Origin: Parcubacteria group bacterium
GTDB lineage: Bacteria; Patescibacteriota; Minisyncoccia; Phycocordibacterales; UBA2100
Assembly (NCBI GenBank): GCA_943358385.1
Contig: CALRGX010000005.1
Span: forward strand, 2,886 to 66,885
Length of the DNA stretch: 64,000 nucleotides
Reading direction: 5' to 3'
Shown one piece after another: positions 7,788 through 38,381 of this stretch; the first letter of the stretch is position 1, and each line of letters starts with the position of its first letter. The notes beneath the pieces were generated by a model. It worked only from the letters and a program-made list of their open reading frames with translations. It was not told the origin of the DNA and did no database searches. The position numbers were made by a program, and so were the translations under genes.

Positions 7788-8507
7788 ATGATTCAACATT
7801 TTTCTATAACCGGAATGCATTGTGGTGCGTGTGTTAAAAAAGTCGAAGCGGCCGTAGGTGCGCTTGCAGGGGTGCGAGTGGTGCGGGTCGACCTTGCGTC
7901 GCAATCAATAGTACTCGAACACGACGCGCCACTTGAGCGCGCTGTAGTGTCACATGCTATAGCCGCTGCCGGGCCATACGTTCTTGGCGACGCCCAGAAC
8001 ATAGTAAAGACACCACCTGCATCCGGTGGGGTTATACGCAGGGTTATGCCGCTCCTTCTCATGCTTGTGTTGGTAACCCTCTTTGCCCTCTTAAAGCAAA
8101 TATTTTTTGCATCGCCGGCCACATTCCATGGGCTAATGCAGGATTGGATGGCCGGATTCTTCTTGCTATTTGGAGTGCTGAAGGTTATCAATCTGAAGAA
8201 ATTTGCCCTCATGTATCAGGGGTATGATGTCGCGGCAAAGCGTTTCCCGTGGTGGGGTTACCTGTACCCATTTCTGGAAGTGGGTCTGGGTCTACTCTTC
8301 CTGTTTGGCGCTGCGCTCGTTTTTGCGAATGTGGCAACAGTCGCGCTGATGGGTTTGGGCATGATTGGCATCTACAAAAAAATCCACTCCGAAGGAGAGG
8401 TGCAGTGCGCGTGTCTGGGAGGATTTTTCAATGTGCCAGTCACCTGGTTTACGTTTGCTGAAAATGGATTGATGGTGGTGATGGCTGTGTGGATGCTTTT
8501 GCAATAG
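7788..8507 (+). CDS. HMA (heavy-metal-associated) domain fused to MauE/DoxX-family redox-associated membrane protein
   Basis: The N-terminus ITGMHCGACVKKVEAAV is an HMA ferredoxin-like metal-binding motif. The C-terminal 4-TM domain with LYPFLEVGLGLLFLFG and QCACLGGFF is clearly homologous to the ORF at 35873..36517. Confidence 0.6.
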   Translation: MIQHFSITGMHCGACVKKVEAAVGALAGVRVVRVDLASQSIVLEHDAPLERAVVSHAIAAAGPYVLGDAQNIVKTPPASGGVIRRVMPLLLMLVLVTLFALLKQIFFASPATFHGLMQDWMAGFFLLFGVLKVINLKKFALMYQGYDVAAKRFPWWGYLYPFLEVGLGLLFLFGAALVFANVATVALMGLGMIGIYKKIHSEGEVQCACLGGFFNVPVTWFTFAENGLMVVMAVWMLLQ

Positions 8508-8531: not shown

Positions 8532-9617
8532 ATGAATATCGATCGCATCATTGGGCACATCGACCTTGATGCGTTTTTTGCATCGGTGGAAGAGCGCGAC
8601 AAGCCATACCTGAAAGGTATGCCGATTGCCGTAGGGTCAGACCCTCTTGGCGGGAAAGGGCGTGGCGTGGTTTCGACCGCGAGCTATGCAGCGCGTACAT
8701 ATGGAATTAGAAGCGCGCTCCCCATACAGACTGCGTGGAAATTATCACAAGCTGCCAAAGCGCGCGGTGAGCAAGAGTGCATTTTCATCGTGCCGCACCA
8801 CGACAAATACGGCACTGCATCTGCTGAAGTCTTTGCGATTATCCGAGAGATTTTTCCTATCGTTGAACAGGTGGGTGTAGATGAAGGGTACGTTGACATG
8901 ACAGAACTAGGCAGCATATCTGCCGCCGAGAAAAAAGCAGCGCTGTTGCGTACGCGCGTACGCGAAGAGCTGGGCCTGGCACTCACGGTTGGGATTGGTC
9001 CCAATAAGCTGATTGCAAAGCTGGCCTCTGAAAAAGGCAAGCCGGACGGACTGTTTGTAGTACCGAGTGAAGAAGTAGACGAGCTGCTCATGCCGCTTTC
9101 TCTACAAGAACTGCCAGGCATTGGCAAGGTTACCGCTGCGCGCCTTACTACACGTGGGCTCAAGACGGTACGCGATGCGCGCAAGCTCAGCTGGCAAGAT
9201 TTGAGGAAACTGTTTGGAAGCCACGGTTTTTCTATGTACGAACGACTGCGTGGGATAGATGAGCGCGTGGTCGAGGTGGTTGGTGAGGCGCCCAAATCAA
9301 TAGGTAAGCACCACACTTTTTTTGAGGATGTTACCGACATACGAGAGGTAGAGGTGGTCCTTGCTACACAAGTGCAGAGCATCATGCGCTCGTTGAAGCG
9401 AGAAAGCTTCAGTGCGTTTAGGACGGTCGTTTTGACGGTTCGCTTTGATGACTTCACGACAGTGAGCCGTGCACTCACGCTTTCCACACCGCGCGCGGAC
9501 GCAAAAGAGTTAGAACTGAAAGCTTTGAAATTGCTCCTCCCATTTTTTGAAAAGAAGGAAAATCCGCATAAGAGGCCGGTTAGATTGATTGGCCTACGAA
9601 TTGAGAAGCTCTCATGA
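8532..9617 (+). CDS. dinB: DNA polymerase IV (Y-family)
   Basis: IDLDAFFASVEERD...IAVG...GIGPNKLIAKLAS matches ImpB/UmuC family motifs. Confidence 0.8.
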   Translation: MNIDRIIGHIDLDAFFASVEERDKPYLKGMPIAVGSDPLGGKGRGVVSTASYAARTYGIRSALPIQTAWKLSQAAKARGEQECIFIVPHHDKYGTASAEVFAIIREIFPIVEQVGVDEGYVDMTELGSISAAEKKAALLRTRVREELGLALTVGIGPNKLIAKLASEKGKPDGLFVVPSEEVDELLMPLSLQELPGIGKVTAARLTTRGLKTVRDARKLSWQDLRKLFGSHGFSMYERLRGIDERVVEVVGEAPKSIGKHHTFFEDVTDIREVEVVLATQVQSIMRSLKRESFSAFRTVVLTVRFDDFTTVSRALTLSTPRADAKELELKALKLLLPFFEKKENPHKRPVRLIGLRIEKLS

Positions 9618-32960: not shown

Positions 32961-33009
32961 GGTCGTGCCTACTATACCACTCTCCCTGGGTAGGTGTTTA
33001 CGCTGAATA

Positions 33010-33038
33010 TTGACGTGGAACGTACTTGAAAGTATAGT
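33010..33038 (+). promoter_or_regulatory. Strong sigma70-like promoter driving ssrA
   Basis: TTGACG (33010-15), a 17-bp spacer, then TATAGT (33033-38). Confidence 0.6.
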
Positions 33039-33044
33039 CCAAAA

Positions 33045-33107
33045 CGGTGTTAGGTGCGGTGTAACTAAGTGGATCGGACCCGGGGGCGGTACCCGGCGCC
33101 TCCACCA
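33045..33107 (+). ncRNA. ssrA: tmRNA acceptor (3') piece of a circularly permuted ssrA
   Basis: A T-arm-like hairpin CCGGG-ggcggta-CCCGG is followed by CGCCTCC-ACCA. This is the 3' acceptor strand, discriminator and CCA, and it lies upstream of the 5' GGGGGCG strand. Confidence 0.55.
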
Positions 33108-33149
33108 AAAACACATCGCTCTGTTCTTTACAGAAGGTGTGCTTTTGCT

Positions 33150-33340
33150 GGGGGCGAAATAGGATCGACGACCACCCAAAAGCTCCGCTGCTTCAACGCA
33201 AGCCGAAGCACCAACTCAAGTGCCAACCATCAGGACGGCGCTGTTCACGCCTAAGGGCTGAACGGGGTTCGGGGAGTACCTGGCAACAGAAACTCCCCAC
33301 TCATACCATGGGCCCGCTCAAAGAGAGCGGGCCCAACTCA
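33150..33340 (+). ncRNA. ssrA: tmRNA coding (5') piece of permuted ssrA
   Basis: It begins GGGGGCGAAATAGGATCGACG, which resembles the tmRNA 5' end GGGGcugauucuGGAUUCGACG. Its GGGGGCG is complementary to the upstream CGCCTCC. It contains a short reading frame ending TAA (a candidate tag ...ANHQDGAVHA) and a terminal hairpin GGGCCCGCTC-aaagag-AGCGGGCCC. Confidence 0.55.
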
Positions 33341-33420
33341 TATCTGAGTGAATTTGACACTAGTATTTTACGGTGGTACTATATAAAAGGTACAGTAGGA
33401 AACCAAAGGAGAACAGACGA

Positions 33421-35211: not shown

Positions 35212-35301
35212 GGAGGGTTCGCATAGTGGTCTAGTGCACGTCCCTGGAAAGGACGAGTCTGGGAAACCGGACCGAGAGTTCGAATCTCTCACCCTCCGCC
35301 A
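35212..35301 (+). tRNA. tRNA-Ser (anticodon GGA), CCA encoded
   Basis: The acceptor GGAGGGT/ACCCTCC is followed by GCCA. The anticodon loop is CTGGAAA, and the long variable arm is GTCTGGGAAACCGGAC. Confidence 0.85.
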
Positions 35302-35322
35302 ACACAATTTAGTCTCGGAGTC

Positions 35323-35357
35323 AACTCACTTGCCTGAGCAAGTGGTGCGACTCACAT
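35323..35357. repeat. Left copy of imperfect direct repeats flanking the AT-rich islet (AACTCACTTGCCT ... GCGACTCACAT), containing palindrome CACTTGC-ctga-GCAAGTG
   Basis: ACTCACTTGCCT and GCGACTCAC recur at 37653-37667 as GCGACTCACTTGCCT. ACTCACAT recurs at 37729-37736. Confidence 0.5.
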
Positions 35358-35371
35358 ACATAAATTGCAAC

Positions 35372-35402
35372 AAAAAAACACGATAATCTCGTGTATTTTT
35401 TG
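35372..35402. terminator. Bidirectional terminator (tRNA-Ser on + and the island operon on -)
   Basis: AAAAAAACACGA-taatc-TCGTGTATTTTTTT. Confidence 0.65.
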
Positions 35403-35417
35403 TTGCAAGAGTAACTC

Positions 35418-35837
35418 TCAATAAGACTTTAGCCACTCATTCATCATTTTAATTTCAACCTCTTGAGCTTTTATTATATTCTCTGCAAAAGTCCTAATTT
35501 CAGGATTTACAGTTTTGTCTTGTAGTAACAATTTGGCCATGTCTACAGCACCTTGATGATGAGGTATCATGCCAGCAATAAATTCTTTTTCTAGAGCTTT
35601 ACCTGTTTTACCTTTCATCATCCCGACCATGTCTGTCATGGTCATATCCATCATACTGTTACCAGTATTCATCATCATTGAACCATCTGGCATTTGATGC
35701 ATATTCTGCATTGTTTTCTGTGCACCAGTTAGATTGTTTATTCGCTCTTTATCTTTCTGTACGATATCTCCGAAGTGAAATACCCATGTAGAGATGAGTG
35801 CTATTGCTAATACGATTGTAGAAATTTTGTAATTCAT
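35418..35837 (-). CDS. DUF305-family protein with Met-rich segment (copper-associated four-helix-bundle family)
   Basis: Signal peptide, the Met-rich run MQNMHQMPDGSMMMNTGNSMMDMTMTDMVGMM, and the DUF305 motif GMIPHHQGAVDMA. Confidence 0.65.
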   Translation of the reverse strand: MNYKISTIVLAIALISTWVFHFGDIVQKDKERINNLTGAQKTMQNMHQMPDGSMMMNTGNSMMDMTMTDMVGMMKGKTGKALEKEFIAGMIPHHQGAVDMAKLLLQDKTVNPEIRTFAENIIKAQEVEIKMMNEWLKSY

Positions 35838-35872
35838 AAATCTGTTTATTAATTAATAATACTTTGGGGACA

Positions 35873-36517
35873 TTACATTGCCATATGCCCCATACTTAAA
35901 GTTGTGATCACCATATAGAGAGCCATAAGTGCCATAAATAGATTCTCGAAAAGAGTTACCTTTGTCATTGGTACAGAGAAAACTGTTCCTAAGCATGCAC
36001 AAGGTATCTCATCTTTGTTTTGAAGTGCTTTCCAGACCCCTATAGTACCTATAGACATAATAATAAAGGTAAACACGTCTCTGTATATTCCACCAATGAC
36101 AAAGAAGTACAGTACTCCAAGCCCTATTTCAATAAATGGATACAGAAGTGCGTATGTGCGAGACTTCTTTGCCAAGATATCATACGTCATGTAAGCGTCT
36201 GCAAAAGCACTCAAATTGGGTAGTTTAAATAATCCAAAAACAAGAAAGAAATAGGACATCATGTACATCATTCCTGTCATAAAGCTATAATCTTGTTTGA
36301 GATACATAGAGACAATAGTCAAAATTGTAATGACTCCGATCATAGCTATTAATGGTAATAGTTTTTGGAAAGTTGATTGATGTGGAAGATTCAAGACTTT
36401 TATTGATTGTTCGGTTTTGTGGTGTTCACAAAAGTAATGAGGACTACCATTTGTGTTCTCATAATAGGTGCCAGCCATACTACACTTCTCACATTTGTTG
36501 TATTTTATTGCATGCAT
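35873..36517 (-). CDS. MauE/DoxX-family redox-associated membrane protein with N-terminal zinc-ribbon-like domain
   Basis: The N-terminus CEKC...FCEHH is followed by a 4-TM domain with LYPFIEIGLGVLYFFV and IPCACLGTVFSVPMTKVTLFEN. It is a paralogue of the C-domain of 7788..8507. Confidence 0.6.
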   Translation of the reverse strand: MHAIKYNKCEKCSMAGTYYENTNGSPHYFCEHHKTEQSIKVLNLPHQSTFQKLLPLIAMIGVITILTIVSMYLKQDYSFMTGMMYMMSYFFLVFGLFKLPNLSAFADAYMTYDILAKKSRTYALLYPFIEIGLGVLYFFVIGGIYRDVFTFIIMSIGTIGVWKALQNKDEIPCACLGTVFSVPMTKVTLFENLFMALMALYMVITTLSMGHMAM

Positions 36518-36522
36518 ACAAT

Positions 36523-36888
36523 TTAATGTTGAACGCTTTCACTTCCATGATGATCTTCACCAAGTAGTGTGTTATCCATAACATAATGAGAAAACAACAT
36601 AAAAAGTATTGCTAAAATTACCACAACTGCAAGATTTCTCTTTTCTATTTTGAATCTGTCTTTCAAGAAAAATGTTACATAGGTGATAATCATTCCAAGG
36701 CCAAGAAGTATTCCAGCGTATGACGGATTATCAAGATAATGCTGTATACCACCTGACAAAAATCCAGTTGCAAACGAAAGTCCTGTGATTATAAGAAAAT
36801 AATTTAGGTTGATTTTTTGCCCATGTTCTTTTGCTTCTTTAATATTTCCTATAATAGTGAAGATTAGACCTATACCAATTAGAACCAC
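36523..36888 (-). CDS. Small integral membrane protein, His-rich C-terminus; start may lie upstream (non-ATG)
   Basis: It has 3-4 hydrophobic helices and a C-terminus EDHHGSESVQH. The in-frame hydrophobic sequence continues upstream to 36993 without an ATG. Confidence 0.45.
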   Translation of the reverse strand: MVLIGIGLIFTIIGNIKEAKEHGQKINLNYFLIITGLSFATGFLSGGIQHYLDNPSYAGILLGLGMIITYVTFFLKDRFKIEKRNLAVVVILAILFMLFSHYVMDNTLLGEDHHGSESVQH

Positions 36889-37008
36889 ATATCTAGTAAC
36901 TCCATTTTGGAGTGTTCCGATATGAACTACTGACCCTGCGATAAGGGCAACTCCTAAATATTTGCAATATAAGTAAAAAATGCATAATGTGATTTATTTA
37001 TATCCATA

Positions 37009-37281
37009 CTATTTCCTCTTTAGCTTATAGACTTTAATAATCTCCTCTTGCATTTCCTTGATTCGACTTTTATTTGTGTCTTTTGTAAGACAGTGGGCAA
37101 GGTGGCTCTGTAGCATCTCATCTTCAAGGGAAGAGATGGCACTTTTTATAGCACTTGTTTGAGTAATGATATCAATACAGTATTTATCTGCTTGAATCAT
37201 CTTTTCAACTCCCTCCAGTTGTCCCATTATGCGTTTAATGCGACTAACTATTTTTTTGTTATCTTTGTGTACTCCGTGCAT
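37009..37281 (-). CDS. csoR: CsoR/RcnR-family metal-sensing transcriptional repressor (copper-sensing CsoR-like)
   Basis: VSRIKRIMGQLEGVEKMIQADKYCIDIITQTSAIKSAISSLEDEMLQSHLAHC carries the DUF156 pattern with conserved Cys...His...Cys ligand positions. Confidence 0.75.
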   Translation of the reverse strand: MHGVHKDNKKIVSRIKRIMGQLEGVEKMIQADKYCIDIITQTSAIKSAISSLEDEMLQSHLAHCLTKDTNKSRIKEMQEEIIKVYKLKRK

Positions 37282-37283
37282 AT

Positions 37284-37367
37284 TTATTTACAGCAATTAG
37301 AACCACAATTTGAACAAGCACACTTCTCACATTTACATGTGATACAAGAGCATTTTGTATTTTTCAT
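37284..37367 (-). CDS. 27-aa Cys-rich peptide (MKNTKCSCITCKCEKCACSNCGSNCCK), candidate metallothionein/Cu-binding peptide; first gene of csoR operon
   Basis: I translated the minus strand by hand. It gives 9 Cys in 27 aa, in CxC and CC motifs. The stop TAA lies 2 nt before the csoR ATG. The ORF is below the size cutoff of the ORF track. Confidence 0.5.
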   Translation of the reverse strand: MKNTKCSCITCKCEKCACSNCGSNCCK

Positions 37368-37421
37368 AATAATAGAGATATTGTAGTGGGTTATGGTAAT
37401 GGACTAGAATATCTTGTATAT

Positions 37422-37450
37422 ATTATATACCCTATGGGGGTATATTGCAA
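37422..37450 (-). promoter_or_regulatory. Promoter of the Cys-peptide/csoR operon with CsoR-like operator in the spacer
   Basis: On the minus strand the promoter reads TTGCAA - 17 bp - TATAAT. The spacer contains the GC-rich pseudo-palindrome ATACCCTATGGGGGTAT (37427-37443), which resembles known CsoR operators (TACCC...GGGGGTA type). Confidence 0.55.
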
Positions 37451-37652
37451 CTAGTCTATAAGCGTTAATTCTTTATCTTTATACACGATCTTGCTCCGCA
37501 GATTTGCTAATAGCTCTCGCTTCTCTGTGACCGCACCCTCTTTCAGAATGTATTTTGCATAATTTCGTATATCAGTATCAGGTGCTTATTTCTCTAGGTG
37601 TCTCATTTGTCTCATTTTCATCTAAAACCCTTTGTTTTATTACTGGGAGATA

Positions 37653-37667
37653 GCGACTCACTTGCCT
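37653..37667. repeat. Right copy of direct repeat (GCGACTCACTTGCCT) bounding the AT-rich islet
   Basis: It matches the left-flank segments at 35323-35335 and 35347-35355. Confidence 0.45.
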
Positions 37668-37827
37668 CAATGAGACACTCTAAAAAGTGCTATAATACAC
37701 TTACAAGGCCTCAAGTCGTGGGTACTTAACTCACATGGCCCGCAAAAATAAAGAGACAGAAGCGAAAGCTTCTGGCGATTATATTTTTGTAGGAAGGGTG
37801 AAAGATTCGAAGGCCGGAGGCGGGGGT

Positions 37828-37960
37828 CCCCAAAAGCTTTTGGGGCGCCGAGGCAGGGTCGTGGAATTTTCAAGTGCGACGGCACTTGAAAATATCCCTG
37901 ACCGAATCCCGGTCAAAAGTCTGCATCTACTGATACAGCTTTCGACCCTGCCTCGCGCCG
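37828..37960 (+). other. Highly structured ~130-nt element (candidate ncRNA or MITE-like repeat)
   Basis: A perfect 18-bp palindrome CCCCAAAAGCTTTTGGGG lies at 37828-37845. A 13-bp long-range stem pairs CGAGGCAGGGTCG (37849-61) with CGACCCTGCCTCG (37943-55). Inside it are the hairpins TTTTCAAGTGC-gacg-GCACTTGAAAA and GACCG-aatcc-CGGTC. Confidence 0.4.
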
Positions 37961-38381
37961 ACGCGCTCCGGCCTTGCGAAGCTGCGCACGGCTCGCTTCT
38001 CACCCCTCCGCTTTGTTCAAGAGAAAGCTTCAAGATAAAGAGAGAAGTTCGCCGCCTTCGCATGTATACTTTCAGTATGTGGATTCACCAGCGCTCGCTG
38101 CTCATCGGTGCTGCCTTCGCACTTCCATTTTTCGCTGCAAATGTGCTGGTAGCTTTGCAGGCAAAACTATTCCTTTGGCTCCTGCGCCCCCTGGGGCATA
38201 CCACGCTGGATGAAGAAATCGCCCAGCCCCCAGCCGATAAGGGCAATAAAAGCACACAGAACACCCCACGAAAGTGACATGGGGGAAGTGTAGCATCGCT
38301 GCCACAGACAGCTCGGCAGTATGTACATTGCGTTCACGTGTGTGCTAATGTAATTCGGGTTTAGCTACAGGAGAGTGCTAC

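What the first reader, a model, noticed from the sequence alone, without database searches (positions are those of the whole stretch)
35323..37667. AT-rich 2.3 kb islet at tRNA-Ser carrying a CsoR-controlled putative copper-handling operon
Immediately downstream of tRNA-Ser(GGA) the sequence becomes visibly AT-rich. This is an eyeball judgement, not a computed value. The stretch is bounded by imperfect direct repeats: ACTCACTTGCCT and GCGACTCAC on the left at 35323-35357, and GCGACTCACTTGCCT on the right at 37653-37667. All five genes in it are on the minus strand and form one apparent operon. They are a 27-aa Cys-rich peptide, a CsoR-family repressor, a His-tailed membrane protein, a MauE/DoxX redox membrane protein with an N-terminal zinc-ribbon, and a Met-rich DUF305 protein. 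The islet genes lack Shine-Dalgarno sequences. Flanking host genes have strong ones, for example AAGGAGG before the hicB-like gene and AAAGGAG before the acidic protein. That suggests acquisition from a donor lineage that does not use SD. No integrase is present, so this would be a decayed or minimal island. The combination of a metallothionein-like peptide, CsoR, a zinc-ribbon-MauE/DoxX protein and DUF305 is not a described copper-resistance module that I know of.
Basis: partly seen in the sequence, partly recalled or inferred. Interest (0 to 1): 0.75.

Follow-up and report, generated by a model that had tools for sequence, protein, structure and literature searches.

The report
Decayed mobile copper-response cassette at tRNA-Ser
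A 2.4-kb stretch of foreign, AT-rich DNA beside a serine tRNA gene in an uncultured Paceibacterota (CPR) bacterium is the worn-down remnant of a very small self-inserting element that spreads a copper-sensing, copper-binding gene set among these bacteria.

Summary
Window 35358-37652 has GC 0.34 against 0.525 +/- 0.013 elsewhere (z = -13.9). It carries one minus-strand operon: a 27-aa Cys-rich peptide, CsoR, a membrane protein, ZnR-MauE and DUF305. The host is a Candidatus Paceibacterota bacterium. Two relatives (90-92% identical neighbouring proteins) have the same tRNA-Ser(GGA) without the islet.

The interpretation needs four corrections.
1. An integrase relic is present. Window 37457-37579 encodes the last ~40 residues of a large serine recombinase (LSR). 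Intact ~3.5-kb elements elsewhere run LSR, then the same five genes, then a convergent tRNA.
2. The left repeats lie inside a conserved element arm. The true left boundary is the tRNA 3' end (35301/35302). Host homology resumes at 37740.
3. The donors are other low-GC Patescibacteria (cargo ~95% nt identical). The Shine-Dalgarno contrast is not significant.
4. The "His-tailed" gene is a frameshifted 161-aa gene of a narrow family with no Pfam or NCBIfam match, found in named Patescibacteria and often fused to DUF305. DUF305 here is a single-repeat CopM, a known Cu(I) binder.

The best reading is a CsoR-repressed copper buffering and exclusion operon without a P-type ATPase, carried by a now immobile mini-element. 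This is a new variant of known kinds and of moderate interest.

The parts
35212..35301 (+). Host tRNA-Ser(GGA). The element abuts its 3' end.
   Evidence: ARAGORN and Rfam tRNA at 55.9 bits. It is 100% identical in the relative L042. Sequence diverges from L015 and L042 immediately after ...CACCCTCCGC.
35302..35357 (.). tRNA-proximal arm of the element. GC is normal here.
   Evidence: Homology with L046 (92% over window 36654-35209) and with L047 (89%, to that contig's end at 35329) includes this arm. In L046 it abuts a different tRNA-Ser(tga) in a 41.5% GC genome. A diverged homologous arm is present in L051, L052 and L010.
35365..35408 (-). Operon terminator: a nested hairpin followed by a T-run, bidirectional.
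   Evidence: Inverted repeat I5, 13/13. The terminator scan finds 35378-35394 on both strands. It is conserved in L046, L047, L051 and L052.
35418..35837 (-). Membrane-anchored, Met-rich, single-repeat CopM-like (DUF305) protein of 139 aa.
   Evidence: PF03713 at E 3e-20. NCBIfam CopM at 74 bits, below the cut-off of 90. PDB CopM 5FFA at E 9e-23, with the PHHQ motif aligned to both CopM repeats.
35873..36517 (-). MauE/DoxX-fold membrane protein of 214 aa with an N-terminal CxxC...CxHH knuckle.
36523..37007 (-). TM161: a 5-helix membrane protein gene with no Pfam/NCBIfam family, found in named Patescibacteria. In this window it is broken by a 1-nt deletion near 36960.
   Evidence: Frames are shown. 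The intact 161-aa allele occurs in L002, L003 and L044. The same deletion occurs in L001, L004, L005 and L043. L045 has a separate break. There is no Pfam or NCBIfam family. Invariant residues are H29, E58, Q89, H90, D93 and P95. The profile finds 285 clusters among 1.84 billion representatives.
37009..37281 (-). CsoR-family repressor of 90 aa with Cu(I) ligands C35, H60 and C64.
   Evidence: PF02583 at E 3e-25. It aligns to S. lividans CsoR 4ADZ (E 2.5e-15) and to 4M1P, with YCIDI and H-x3-C conserved.
37284..37367 (-). Cys27: a 27-aa peptide with 9 Cys, metallothionein-like.
   Evidence: The ORF is. It is conserved upstream of csoR in L010, L047, L048, L051, L052 and L055-L064. All 9 Cys are kept, and synonymous to non-synonymous changes against the window reach 5:1 and 5:2. 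No Pfam, NCBIfam or PDB match.
37422..37450 (-). Promoter (TTGCAA, 17 nt, TATAAT) with the 21-nt CsoR operator ATATACCCCCATAGGGTATAT (37425-37445) filling the spacer and touching both hexamers.
   Evidence: The promoter scan scores 10/12. Promoter and operator are conserved in all module-bearing loci examined. The operator matches the streptomycete CsoR consensus ATATACCCCTNAGGGGTATAT (PMC3902906).
37457..37579 (-). Relic of the last ~40 codons of a large serine recombinase gene.
   Evidence: Translation gives DIRNYAKYILKEGAVTEKRELLANLRSKIVYKDKELTLID*. tblastn to the L010 LSR residues 410-450 gives E 4e-9. It is 100% identical to the C-terminus of the L059 LSR and 87-90% to those of L051 and L052.
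37653..37739 (.). Stretch of unresolved origin between the LSR relic and the resumption of host homology.
   Evidence: No match in any fetched locus. Host homology with L042 begins at 37740.

Best explanation
What it is. The islet is the immobilised remnant of a ~3.5-kb integrative element of Patescibacteria. The intact form runs: large serine recombinase (LSR), Cys27, CsoR, TM161, ZnR-MauE, DUF305, a short arm, then the 3' end of a convergent tRNA gene. A low-GC Patescibacterium donated it to this 52% GC Paceibacterota lineage. It was already present in the ancestor of the sampled strains. It has since lost all but ~40 codons of the recombinase. In several haplotypes TM161 is also inactivated.

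How the cargo most likely works.
1. With little copper, CsoR binds the 21-nt G-tract pseudopalindrome that fills the promoter spacer and blocks transcription, including its own. The site and its position are shown here; binding is inferred.
2. Cu(I) bound at C35/H60/C64 releases CsoR. The ligands are shown by alignment; the response is inferred.
3. The 9-Cys peptide buffers Cu(I) in the cytoplasm. This is inferred.
4. ZnR-MauE takes metal on its cytoplasmic CxxC...CxHH knuckle. It then passes the metal, or passes reducing power, through a bundle lined with an invariant PCAC motif and Met residues. This is inferred and is the weakest step.
5. On the outer face, the His cluster and His tail of TM161, together with the Met/His-rich CopM-like DUF305, capture copper and limit re-entry. 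The topology and the link to copper rest on domain fusions and on CopM biochemistry.

No P-type ATPase is involved.
For: Foreign origin.
- GC z = -13.9 and GC3 of 0.21-0.37 against 0.60 for host genes.
- The relatives L015 (FMN reductase 91%, HxlR 92%) and L042 (HxlR 90%) have the same tRNA-Ser without these genes.
- The cargo block, window 37453-35422, is about 95% nt identical to copies in genomes of 32-40% GC (L055-L064), 88-91% to L010, and 89% to L047.

Mobile element.
- Intact LSR plus the five genes plus a convergent tRNA-Ser occur in L051 and L052.
- L061 and L064 carry intact LSRs. L062, L047, L060, L010 and the window carry truncated LSRs or relics.
- The identical TM161 protein is indexed in 40 blocks of the collection. 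At least 5 distinct neighbourhoods were seen, next to tRNA-Gln, tRNA-Arg or tRNA-Ser.
- The element arm next to three different tRNA-Ser genes is conserved.

Presence in the ancestor of the sampled strains. SNP density in the islet (0.12-0.16%) equals that of the flanks (0.05-0.3%) between haplotypes.

Regulation. See the CsoR ligands, the promoter, operator conservation, and the match to the published operator consensus.

Copper chemistry.
- DUF305 matches CopM at E 9e-23. CopM binds Cu(I) with KD ~3e-16 and confers resistance (PMC4335983).
- The TM161 domain is fused to DUF305 in 5 of 10 sampled distant members and to a YtkA-like domain in one.
- The host's own MauE paralogue (window 7788-8507) carries a canonical HMA GMxCxxC domain where the islet protein has its Cys/His knuckle.
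- Cys27 keeps all 9 Cys under purifying selection.
Against: - No experiment or expression data exists.
- The metal specificity of CsoR-family sensors cannot be proven from sequence.
- TM161 is knocked out in this window and, independently, in L045. Either it is dispensable or the operon is decaying here.
- The right end, 37653-37739, is unexplained.
- LSR type and tRNA-arm type are not strictly coupled. L059 has a type-A LSR with a tRNA-Gln arm. That the LSR is the enzyme which targets the tRNA is therefore inferred, not shown.
- No att sites were defined.
Confidence: 0.75

Rival explanations
1. The short direct repeats (GCGACTCAC / ACTCACTTGCCT) are the att sites or target-site duplication that bracket the inserted AT-rich DNA. 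The element would then be exactly 35358-37652.
For: The repeats are exact, improbable by chance, and sit at the two GC transitions. SCCmec-type LSR cassettes are flanked by short direct repeats (own knowledge).
Against: Both left copies lie within a 56-nt arm that travels with the cargo in other genomes (L046 at 92%, L047 at 89%). That arm abuts a different tRNA-Ser in L046. The right copy sits where the recombinase gene is truncated, so it is not the natural LSR-proximal end seen in L051 and L052. Host homology resumes only at 37740.
Confidence: 0.12
2. The operon responds to and handles something other than copper. Candidates are Ni/Co (an RcnR/InrS-like sensor) or reactive sulfur species (a CstR-like sensor with a DoxX/MauE redox protein).
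For: CsoR-family members sense several effectors. The N-terminus has His2 and His5, which could add a fourth ligand. NCBIfam scores fall below every specific cut-off: RicR 70.5 against 175, FrmR 47, RcnR 42. MauE/DoxX is described as redox-associated.
Against: The His-x3-Cys plus Cys ligand set aligns with proven Cu(I) sensors, and S. lividans CsoR has the same VHGYHK N-terminus. The operator is the copper-type G-tract pseudopalindrome. The partners are a CopM homologue, a Met-rich region, a 9-Cys peptide, and fusions to HMA and YtkA-like domains.
Confidence: 0.1
3. The MauE-like protein does not move copper. It is a membrane thiol-disulfide oxidoreductase that repairs copper-induced mis-oxidation of exported proteins, or keeps the Cys and Met sites of its partners reduced.
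Against: An N-terminal HMA domain in the host paralogue, or a Cys/His knuckle here, is the usual mark of metal hand-off to a membrane transporter. Six invariant Met in the bundle and a C-terminal MGHMAM motif fit a Cu(I) path. The cassette itself encodes no thioredoxin-like partner.
Confidence: 0.35
4. The block is ancestral to this lineage and was deleted in L015 and L042, or it is an assembly or binning chimera.
For: All contigs that carry the identical HxlR protein and are long enough also carry the islet. Only two islet-free relatives were found.
Against: GC and GC3 are far from host values. Copies about 95% identical lie in unrelated low-GC genomes at other tRNAs. A recombinase relic is present. 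The same junctions were recovered in at least 9 independent assemblies from ENA and Logan with linked SNP haplotypes, which excludes a chimera.
Confidence: 0.03

Closest known systems
CsoR-regulated copper operons of Firmicutes and Actinobacteria (B. subtilis copZA; S. lividans csoR and copZA)
   Same: A CsoR repressor with Cys/His/Cys Cu(I) ligands. Its operator is a G-tract pseudopalindrome that overlaps the promoter, almost identical to the streptomycete consensus ATATACCCCTNAGGGGTATAT. The operon is autoregulated.
   Different: There is no P1B-type ATPase and no CopZ in the operon or anywhere in the 64-kb window. The effectors are instead a Cys-rich peptide, a knuckle-MauE membrane protein, TM161 and a CopM-like protein.
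M. tuberculosis RicR regulon (mymT metallothionein, lpqS, membrane proteins). Recalled from own knowledge, not tested here.
   Same: A CsoR-family repressor controls a small Cys-rich Cu(I)-buffering peptide together with envelope and membrane proteins rather than an efflux ATPase. The best NCBIfam hit of the repressor is the RicR model.
   Different: The RicR hit scores 70.5 bits against a cut-off of 175, so this is not an orthologue. Cys27 has no detectable similarity to any solved or curated metallothionein. Here the genes form one operon on a mobile element.
CopM of Synechocystis (copMRS), the DUF305 family
   Same: The fold family and the PHHQ His-His motif are shared, there is a Met-rich segment, and the location is extracytoplasmic. 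CopM binds Cu(I) tightly and confers resistance by itself (PMC4335983).
   Different: There is a single DUF305 repeat of 139 aa with an N-terminal membrane anchor, where CopM has two repeats. The score is below the NCBIfam CopM cut-off (74 against 90). Control is by CsoR, not by the CopRS two-component system. It is paired with, and elsewhere fused to, TM161.
Small cassettes mobilised by large serine recombinases, such as SCCmec, including SCCmec-linked copper loci (copXL, PMC5947656)
   Same: A short element encodes an LSR and metal-resistance cargo. It inserts at one conserved housekeeping locus, decays in place, and exchanges cargo between backbones.
   Different: The targets are the 3' ends of tRNA genes (Ser, Gln, Arg). 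The element is only ~3.5 kb with a single recombinase. The hosts are Patescibacteria. att sites and excision have not been demonstrated.
MauE (methylamine dehydrogenase maturation) and DoxX membrane proteins
   Different: No mau genes are nearby. It has an N-terminal metal-binding knuckle, or an HMA domain in the host paralogue. The context is copper-regulated.

Membership tests
CsoR (Cu(I)-sensing branch of the CsoR/RcnR family) | Match to Pfam PF02583 above the gathering score | tested here: met
   88.8 bits against a cut-off of 22.8, E 3e-25.
CsoR (Cu(I)-sensing branch of the CsoR/RcnR family) | x-C-H-C ligand fingerprint: one Cys in helix 2 and a His-x3-Cys pair in helix 3 | tested here: met
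   C35 (YCIDI), H60 and C64 align with the ligands of S. lividans CsoR 4ADZ and of 4M1P.
CsoR (Cu(I)-sensing branch of the CsoR/RcnR family) | G-tract pseudopalindromic operator at the regulated promoter | tested here: met
   ATATACCCCCATAGGGTATAT lies at 37425-37445 between and overlapping the -35 and -10 hexamers. Published consensus: ATATACCCCTNAGGGGTATAT (PMC3902906).
CsoR (Cu(I)-sensing branch of the CsoR/RcnR family) | Cu(I)-dependent release from DNA | not testable with these tools
   Needs EMSA or ITC with purified protein.
CopM / DUF305 | Match to Pfam PF03713 and conservation of the His-His motif | tested here: met
   73.2 bits against a cut-off of 27. MIPHHQGAVDMA aligns to both repeats of CopM 5FFA.
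CopM / DUF305 | NCBIfam CopM metallochaperone model above its cut-off, and the two-repeat architecture | tested here: not met
   74 bits against a cut-off of 90. There is one repeat only, at residues 66-137. I file it as CopM-like, not as CopM.
MauE (methylamine utilisation) | Match to Pfam PF07291 | tested here: met
   53.6 bits against a cut-off of 27.
MauE (methylamine utilisation) | mau gene cluster context (mauA, mauB, mauD) | tested here: not met
   The neighbours are CsoR, TM161 and DUF305 in every locus examined.
Metallothionein | Similarity to a curated or solved metallothionein family | tested here: not met
   No Pfam hit even at E <= 10, no NCBIfam hit, and no PDB hit at E <= 10. 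What remains is only the composition (9 Cys in 27 aa, CxC and CxxC spacing) and the conservation of every Cys.
tRNA-linked integrative element or genomic island | Site-specific recombinase gene | tested here: inconclusive
   The window holds only a 40-codon LSR relic. Intact LSRs with Resolvase, Recombinase and Zn_ribbon_recom domains occur in the sister elements L051, L052, L061 and L064.
tRNA-linked integrative element or genomic island | Insertion at a tRNA 3' end, deviant composition, and islet-free alleles in relatives | tested here: met
tRNA-linked integrative element or genomic island | Defined attL and attR sites, and excision or circularisation | not tested
   The ends could not be defined. 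37653-37739 has no counterpart. Junction PCR or in-vitro recombination is needed.
CsoR-CopA-CopZ efflux operon | P1B-type Cu(I) ATPase under CsoR control | tested here: not met
   tblastn with the L010 P-type ATPase finds nothing in the 64-kb window. None of the compact elements encodes one.

The most novel reading that the evidence does not exclude
MauE-fold proteins that carry a cytoplasmic metal-binding head (a Cys/His knuckle here, an HMA domain in the host paralogue) may be a previously unrecognised, ATP-independent Cu(I) translocator. Together with the family-less TM161 membrane protein and a CopM-like outer-face binder, they would form a complete copper detoxification route that does not use a P-type ATPase. 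Minimal (~3.5 kb) serine-recombinase elements would spread this route among Patescibacteria by docking at tRNA 3' ends and swapping cargo and ends by recombination.
Probability: 0.2. Interest if true: 0.8.

Novelty: new variant of a known kind. Interest (0 to 1): 0.55.

Why it matters
Patescibacteria have tiny genomes and few stress systems, and their mobile elements are poorly known. This locus documents recent gene flow between lineages with very different GC content. It also documents one of the smallest cargo-carrying integrative elements, and a copper-response module built from unusual parts. Two of those parts have no described function: knuckle- or HMA-headed MauE proteins, and the TM161 domain that recurs fused to DUF305. 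Their tight, repeated linkage to CsoR and CopM makes that function directly testable. If the MauE protein moves Cu(I), it would be a new transporter class.

Tried and rejected
- An exact-pattern scan of JGI metagenomes with a conserved 29-mer of the neighbouring structured element, meant to find more islet-free alleles, found nothing.
- A protein-based metagenome scan with the MauE protein gave only 4 loci. Two of them, L051 and L052, proved decisive.
- Looking up the 214-aa MauE protein by exact sequence failed because gene callers used a later start, giving 201 aa.
- The afdb50 fold library was unavailable.
- Literature searches for MauE with CsoR or copper returned only author names (Maue) or unrelated papers. 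No paper combined CsoR with DUF305.
- I first placed the TM161 frameshift in the T6/A6 run at about 36968-36975. Alignment of haplotypes showed it is a 1-nt deletion near 36960, an A4 run shortened to A3 on the coding strand.
- I considered that the 220-nt structured element at 37792-38012 was a second tmRNA, a tRNA with a group I intron, or another known RNA. Rfam gives no hit at E <= 1.
- I looked for repeats at the ends of the larger L010 island and found nothing informative.
- I could not derive attL and attR. The right-hand 87 nt (37653-37739) resembles a degenerate second copy of the arm only weakly, by eye.

Full report

Yes. The stretch 35358-37652 has GC 0.341, against 0.533 and 0.522 in the adjoining 10 kb and 0.519 for the whole window. 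Among 566 windows of the same size elsewhere, the mean is 0.525, the sd 0.013 and the minimum 0.498. The islet is therefore 13.9 sd low. It is also the only place where 1-kb GC falls below 0.44. Third-position GC of its genes is 0.21-0.37, against 0.60 +/- 0.06 for 21 neighbouring host genes.

tRNA-Ser(gga) lies at 35212-35301. The repeats exist: ACTCACTTGCCT is matched 12/12 and GCGACTCAC 9/9. The composite 15-mer with up to 3 mismatches occurs 7 times against 2.2 expected. None of 100 shuffles reached that number, and three of the seven copies sit at the islet's edges.

The five ORFs are on the minus strand, 1-35 nt apart. Pfam confirms three of them: CsoR (PF02583, E 3e-25), MauE (PF07291, E 3.5e-14) and DUF305 (PF03713, E 3e-20).

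**2. Host and islet-free relatives**

The flanking FMN reductase finds a 91% identical copy in a MAG named Candidatus Paceibacterota bacterium (JAGOVW010000012.1, locus L015, GC 0.528). L015 has the same gene order: acidic protein, FMN reductase, HxlR, tRNA-Ser(gga). After about 25 nt it continues with the sequence that in the window begins near 37793. None of the five islet genes is present.

A second relative, L042 (HxlR 90% identical), has an identical tRNA-Ser followed by different content. Its homology to the window resumes at 37740.

Every contig that carries the identical HxlR protein and is long enough carries the islet with the same junctions. These contigs come from at least 9 independent ENA and Logan assemblies. 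Divergence between haplotypes is the same inside the islet and outside it. The islet is therefore not an assembly artefact, and it predates the sampled strains.

**3. Where it came from**

Homologues of the MauE protein are all from Patescibacteria where a name exists. The same gene set occurs in genomes of 30-41% GC in quite different neighbourhoods. At the DNA level, the block 37453-35422 (promoter to the DUF305 stop codon) has these identities:
- about 95% to copies in L055-L064;
- 89% to L047;
- 88-91% to L010 and L011, which lack the TM161 gene;
- 70-75% to L012-L014, L051 and L052.

The donor is thus another, low-GC Patescibacterium, and the transfer is too recent for the composition to have adjusted to the host's.

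**4. It is a decayed integrative element, and an integrase relic is present**

Translating 37457-37579 on the minus strand gives DIRNYAKYILKEGAVTEKRELLANLRSKIVYKDKELTLID*. This is the C-terminus of a large serine recombinase (LSR). It is 100% identical to the end of the LSR in L059, and 87-90% identical to the ends of the intact 441-aa LSRs of L051 and L052.

L051 and L052 show the complete element: LSR, Cys27, CsoR, TM161, MauE, DUF305, a ~60-nt arm, then the 3' end of a convergent tRNA-Ser (tga and gct respectively). The whole is about 3.5 kb.

One exact TM161 protein (P0248) is indexed in 40 blocks of the collection. The places read show at least five neighbourhoods:
- with an intact LSR (L061, L064);
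- with a truncated LSR (L062);
- with only a relic (L060);
- with none (L055).

These copies lie next to tRNA-Gln(ttg), tRNA-Arg(tct) or tRNA-Ser. Two LSR lineages, about 50% identical to each other, carry nearly identical cargo. LSR type and tRNA-arm type are not strictly coupled. The copper block therefore behaves as a cassette that recombines between backbones.

**5. Boundaries**

This GC-normal stretch travels with the cargo. It is conserved at 92% in L046, where it abuts a different gene, tRNA-Ser(tga), in a 41.5% GC genome. Homology with L046 stops at the 5' end of the tRNA. The stretch is conserved at 89% in L047 up to that contig's end. The left boundary is therefore the tRNA 3' end (35301/35302), not the GC transition.

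On the right, the LSR relic runs to about 37579, with possibly frameshifted traces up to about 37640. The 15-mer repeat follows at 37653-37667. Then come about 70 nt with no counterpart anywhere. Host homology resumes at 37740.

The natural LSR-proximal end seen in L051, L052 and L010 (TTTTAGYTACCAACA...) is missing. The right junction is therefore a secondary deletion or rearrangement scar. Its exact history, and the meaning of the repeat, remain unresolved.

**6. The Shine-Dalgarno argument**

I looked for an SD core of 4 nt or more at positions -20 to -4. It is found for 7 of 21 host genes and for 1 of 5 islet genes (AGAGGA before the 161-aa ORF). In three donor-like loci it is found for 1 of 21, 4 of 20 and 2 of 19 genes. 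The donors are indeed SD-poor. But the host is not a uniformly strong SD user, and 1/5 against 7/21 is not a difference.

**7. The operon**

A sigma70-type promoter (TTGCAA, 17 nt, TATAAT; 37450-37422) scores 10/12. Its spacer is filled by ATATACCCCCATAGGGTATAT (37425-37445), which touches both hexamers. Promoter and operator are conserved in all 16 module-bearing loci examined. The site is almost the published streptomycete CsoR consensus, ATATACCCCTNAGGGGTATAT (PMC3902906). A hairpin with a T-run follows DUF305 (35378-35394).

*CsoR.* It aligns with S. lividans CsoR (4ADZ, E 2.5e-15), keeping Cys35, His60 and Cys64.

*DUF305.* The protein has an N-terminal anchor, a Met-rich segment and the PHHQ motif. 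It matches Synechocystis CopM (5FFA, E 9e-23), but as a single repeat, and it falls below the NCBIfam CopM cut-off. CopM binds Cu(I) with KD ~3e-16 and confers resistance on its own (PMC4335983).

*Cys27.* The peptide MKNTKCSCITCKCEKCACSNCGSNCCK has no database relative. It is nevertheless conserved upstream of csoR in most copies. All nine Cys are kept, and there is an excess of synonymous change. It is absent from the more distant copies L012, L013 and L054.

**8. The two poorly understood membrane proteins**

*TM161.* In this window, and in L001, L004, L005 and L043, the gene is broken by a 1-nt deletion near 36960. It is intact in L002, L003 and L044. L045 has an independent break. The alleles are linked to SNPs, so they are real haplotypes.

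Of ten longer distant members sampled, five are fused to DUF305, one to a YtkA-like domain and two to beta-propellers. From my own knowledge, the YtkA-like family includes the B. subtilis Cu chaperone CtaK. TM161 is therefore a membrane partner of extracytoplasmic copper-binding domains.

The host genome itself encodes a 36% identical paralogue (window 7788-8507). Its N-terminus is a canonical HMA domain with GMHCGAC. A metal-binding head on this bundle is thus a recurrent design. That is the best argument that the bundle receives metal, although a thiol-redox role is not excluded.

**9. Mechanism, and how sure each step is**

I regard as well supported (about 0.8) that this is a CsoR-repressed, copper-induced operon acquired on an LSR element that is now immobile. 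I regard the following three steps as plausible but inferred:
- cytoplasmic buffering by Cys27;
- hand-off through, or redox support by, the MauE protein (about 0.3 for true transport);
- capture of copper outside the cell by TM161 and the CopM-like protein.

No P-type ATPase is present in the cassette or in the window. TM161 has been inactivated twice in this host. This suggests that it is dispensable here or that the cassette is decaying.

**10. Comparison and novelty**

The regulatory logic is that of known CsoR operons. DUF305/CopM is a described copper protein. LSR-borne resistance cassettes at fixed loci are known, for example SCCmec and its copper loci (PMC5947656). What appears undescribed is the following:
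- the effector set (a Cys-rich peptide, a metal-headed MauE protein, TM161 and a half-CopM, with no ATPase);
- its packaging in a ~3.5-kb tRNA-docking LSR element;
- its circulation among Patescibacteria.

I found no account of any of these in the searchable literature. I rate it a new variant of known kinds, with interest 0.55.

Noticed in passing
window 37792-38012 (+); L015 9188-9424 (-); L042 1820-1970: A ~220-nt element just right of the islet folds into a very stable multi-branched structure (-124.6 kcal/mol, z -8.85). It is conserved in L015, where 12 of 68 pairs show compensatory changes, and truncated in L042. Its outer helix is made of the tRNA-Ser 3'-end sequence (CTCACCC(C)TCCGC) and its complement. 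Rfam gives no hit. A possible extended -10 promoter, TGCTATAAT, lies at 37688-37696. The called 180-aa ORF 37735-38277 over it has no Pfam hit and is probably spurious. It may be an undescribed ncRNA or a palindromic recombination relic.
   Followed up: partly
L042 1340-1810; L015 ~9100-9133 (-): Relatives carry a patchwork of tRNA-Ser fragments around the intact tRNA-Ser(gga): 5' halves, 3' halves with insertions, and internal pieces. Each has different cargo downstream (Hypoth_Ymh and others in L042). The locus is a recombination and integration hot spot.
   Followed up: partly
window 7788-8507 (+): The host encodes an HMA-MauE fusion protein of 239 aa (Pfam HMA 1.3e-11 plus MauE 3.3e-14). 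It is 36% identical to the islet MauE protein over the membrane part.
   Followed up: partly
proteins P0270, P0271, P0314, P0328, P0395, P0417, P0429, P0437, P0460, P0439: The TM161 domain occurs naturally fused to DUF305, on either side, and once to a YtkA-like domain. Two other members carry beta-propellers.
   Followed up: yes
window 36523-37007; L045: The TM161 gene has two independent inactivating mutations in the host population: a 1-nt deletion near 36960 in five assemblies, and C to A at 36696 in L045. The other four genes stay intact.
   Followed up: yes
L010 700-9700: This is a larger composite island in a low-GC CPR genome. It runs: intact LSR, DsbB, DsbA, DUF305, DsbA-like, an unknown gene, and a P-type ATPase. 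Then come an LSR relic and Cys27-CsoR-MauE-DUF305 (no TM161) with a tRNA-Gln-type arm remnant. Then come a VTT fragment, a tRNA-Ser-type arm and tRNA-Ser. The elements have accreted in a nested fashion.
   Followed up: partly
window 33006-33345 (+): A permuted (two-piece) tmRNA gene matches Rfam alpha_tmRNA at 122.9 bits and tmRNA_permuted at 91.9 bits. The tag peptide is ANHQDGAVHA.
   Followed up: no
L010, L012, L013 (many genes): In the low-GC Patescibacteria loci, many genes have a TATAAT-like box directly before the ATG and almost no SD sequences. This suggests widespread leaderless mRNAs.
   Followed up: no
window 37653-37739: 87 nt between the recombinase relic and the resumption of host homology match nothing fetched. 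By eye they contain two more ACTCAC-type motifs (37656 and 37726) resembling the element arm. Their origin is unexplained.
   Followed up: partly
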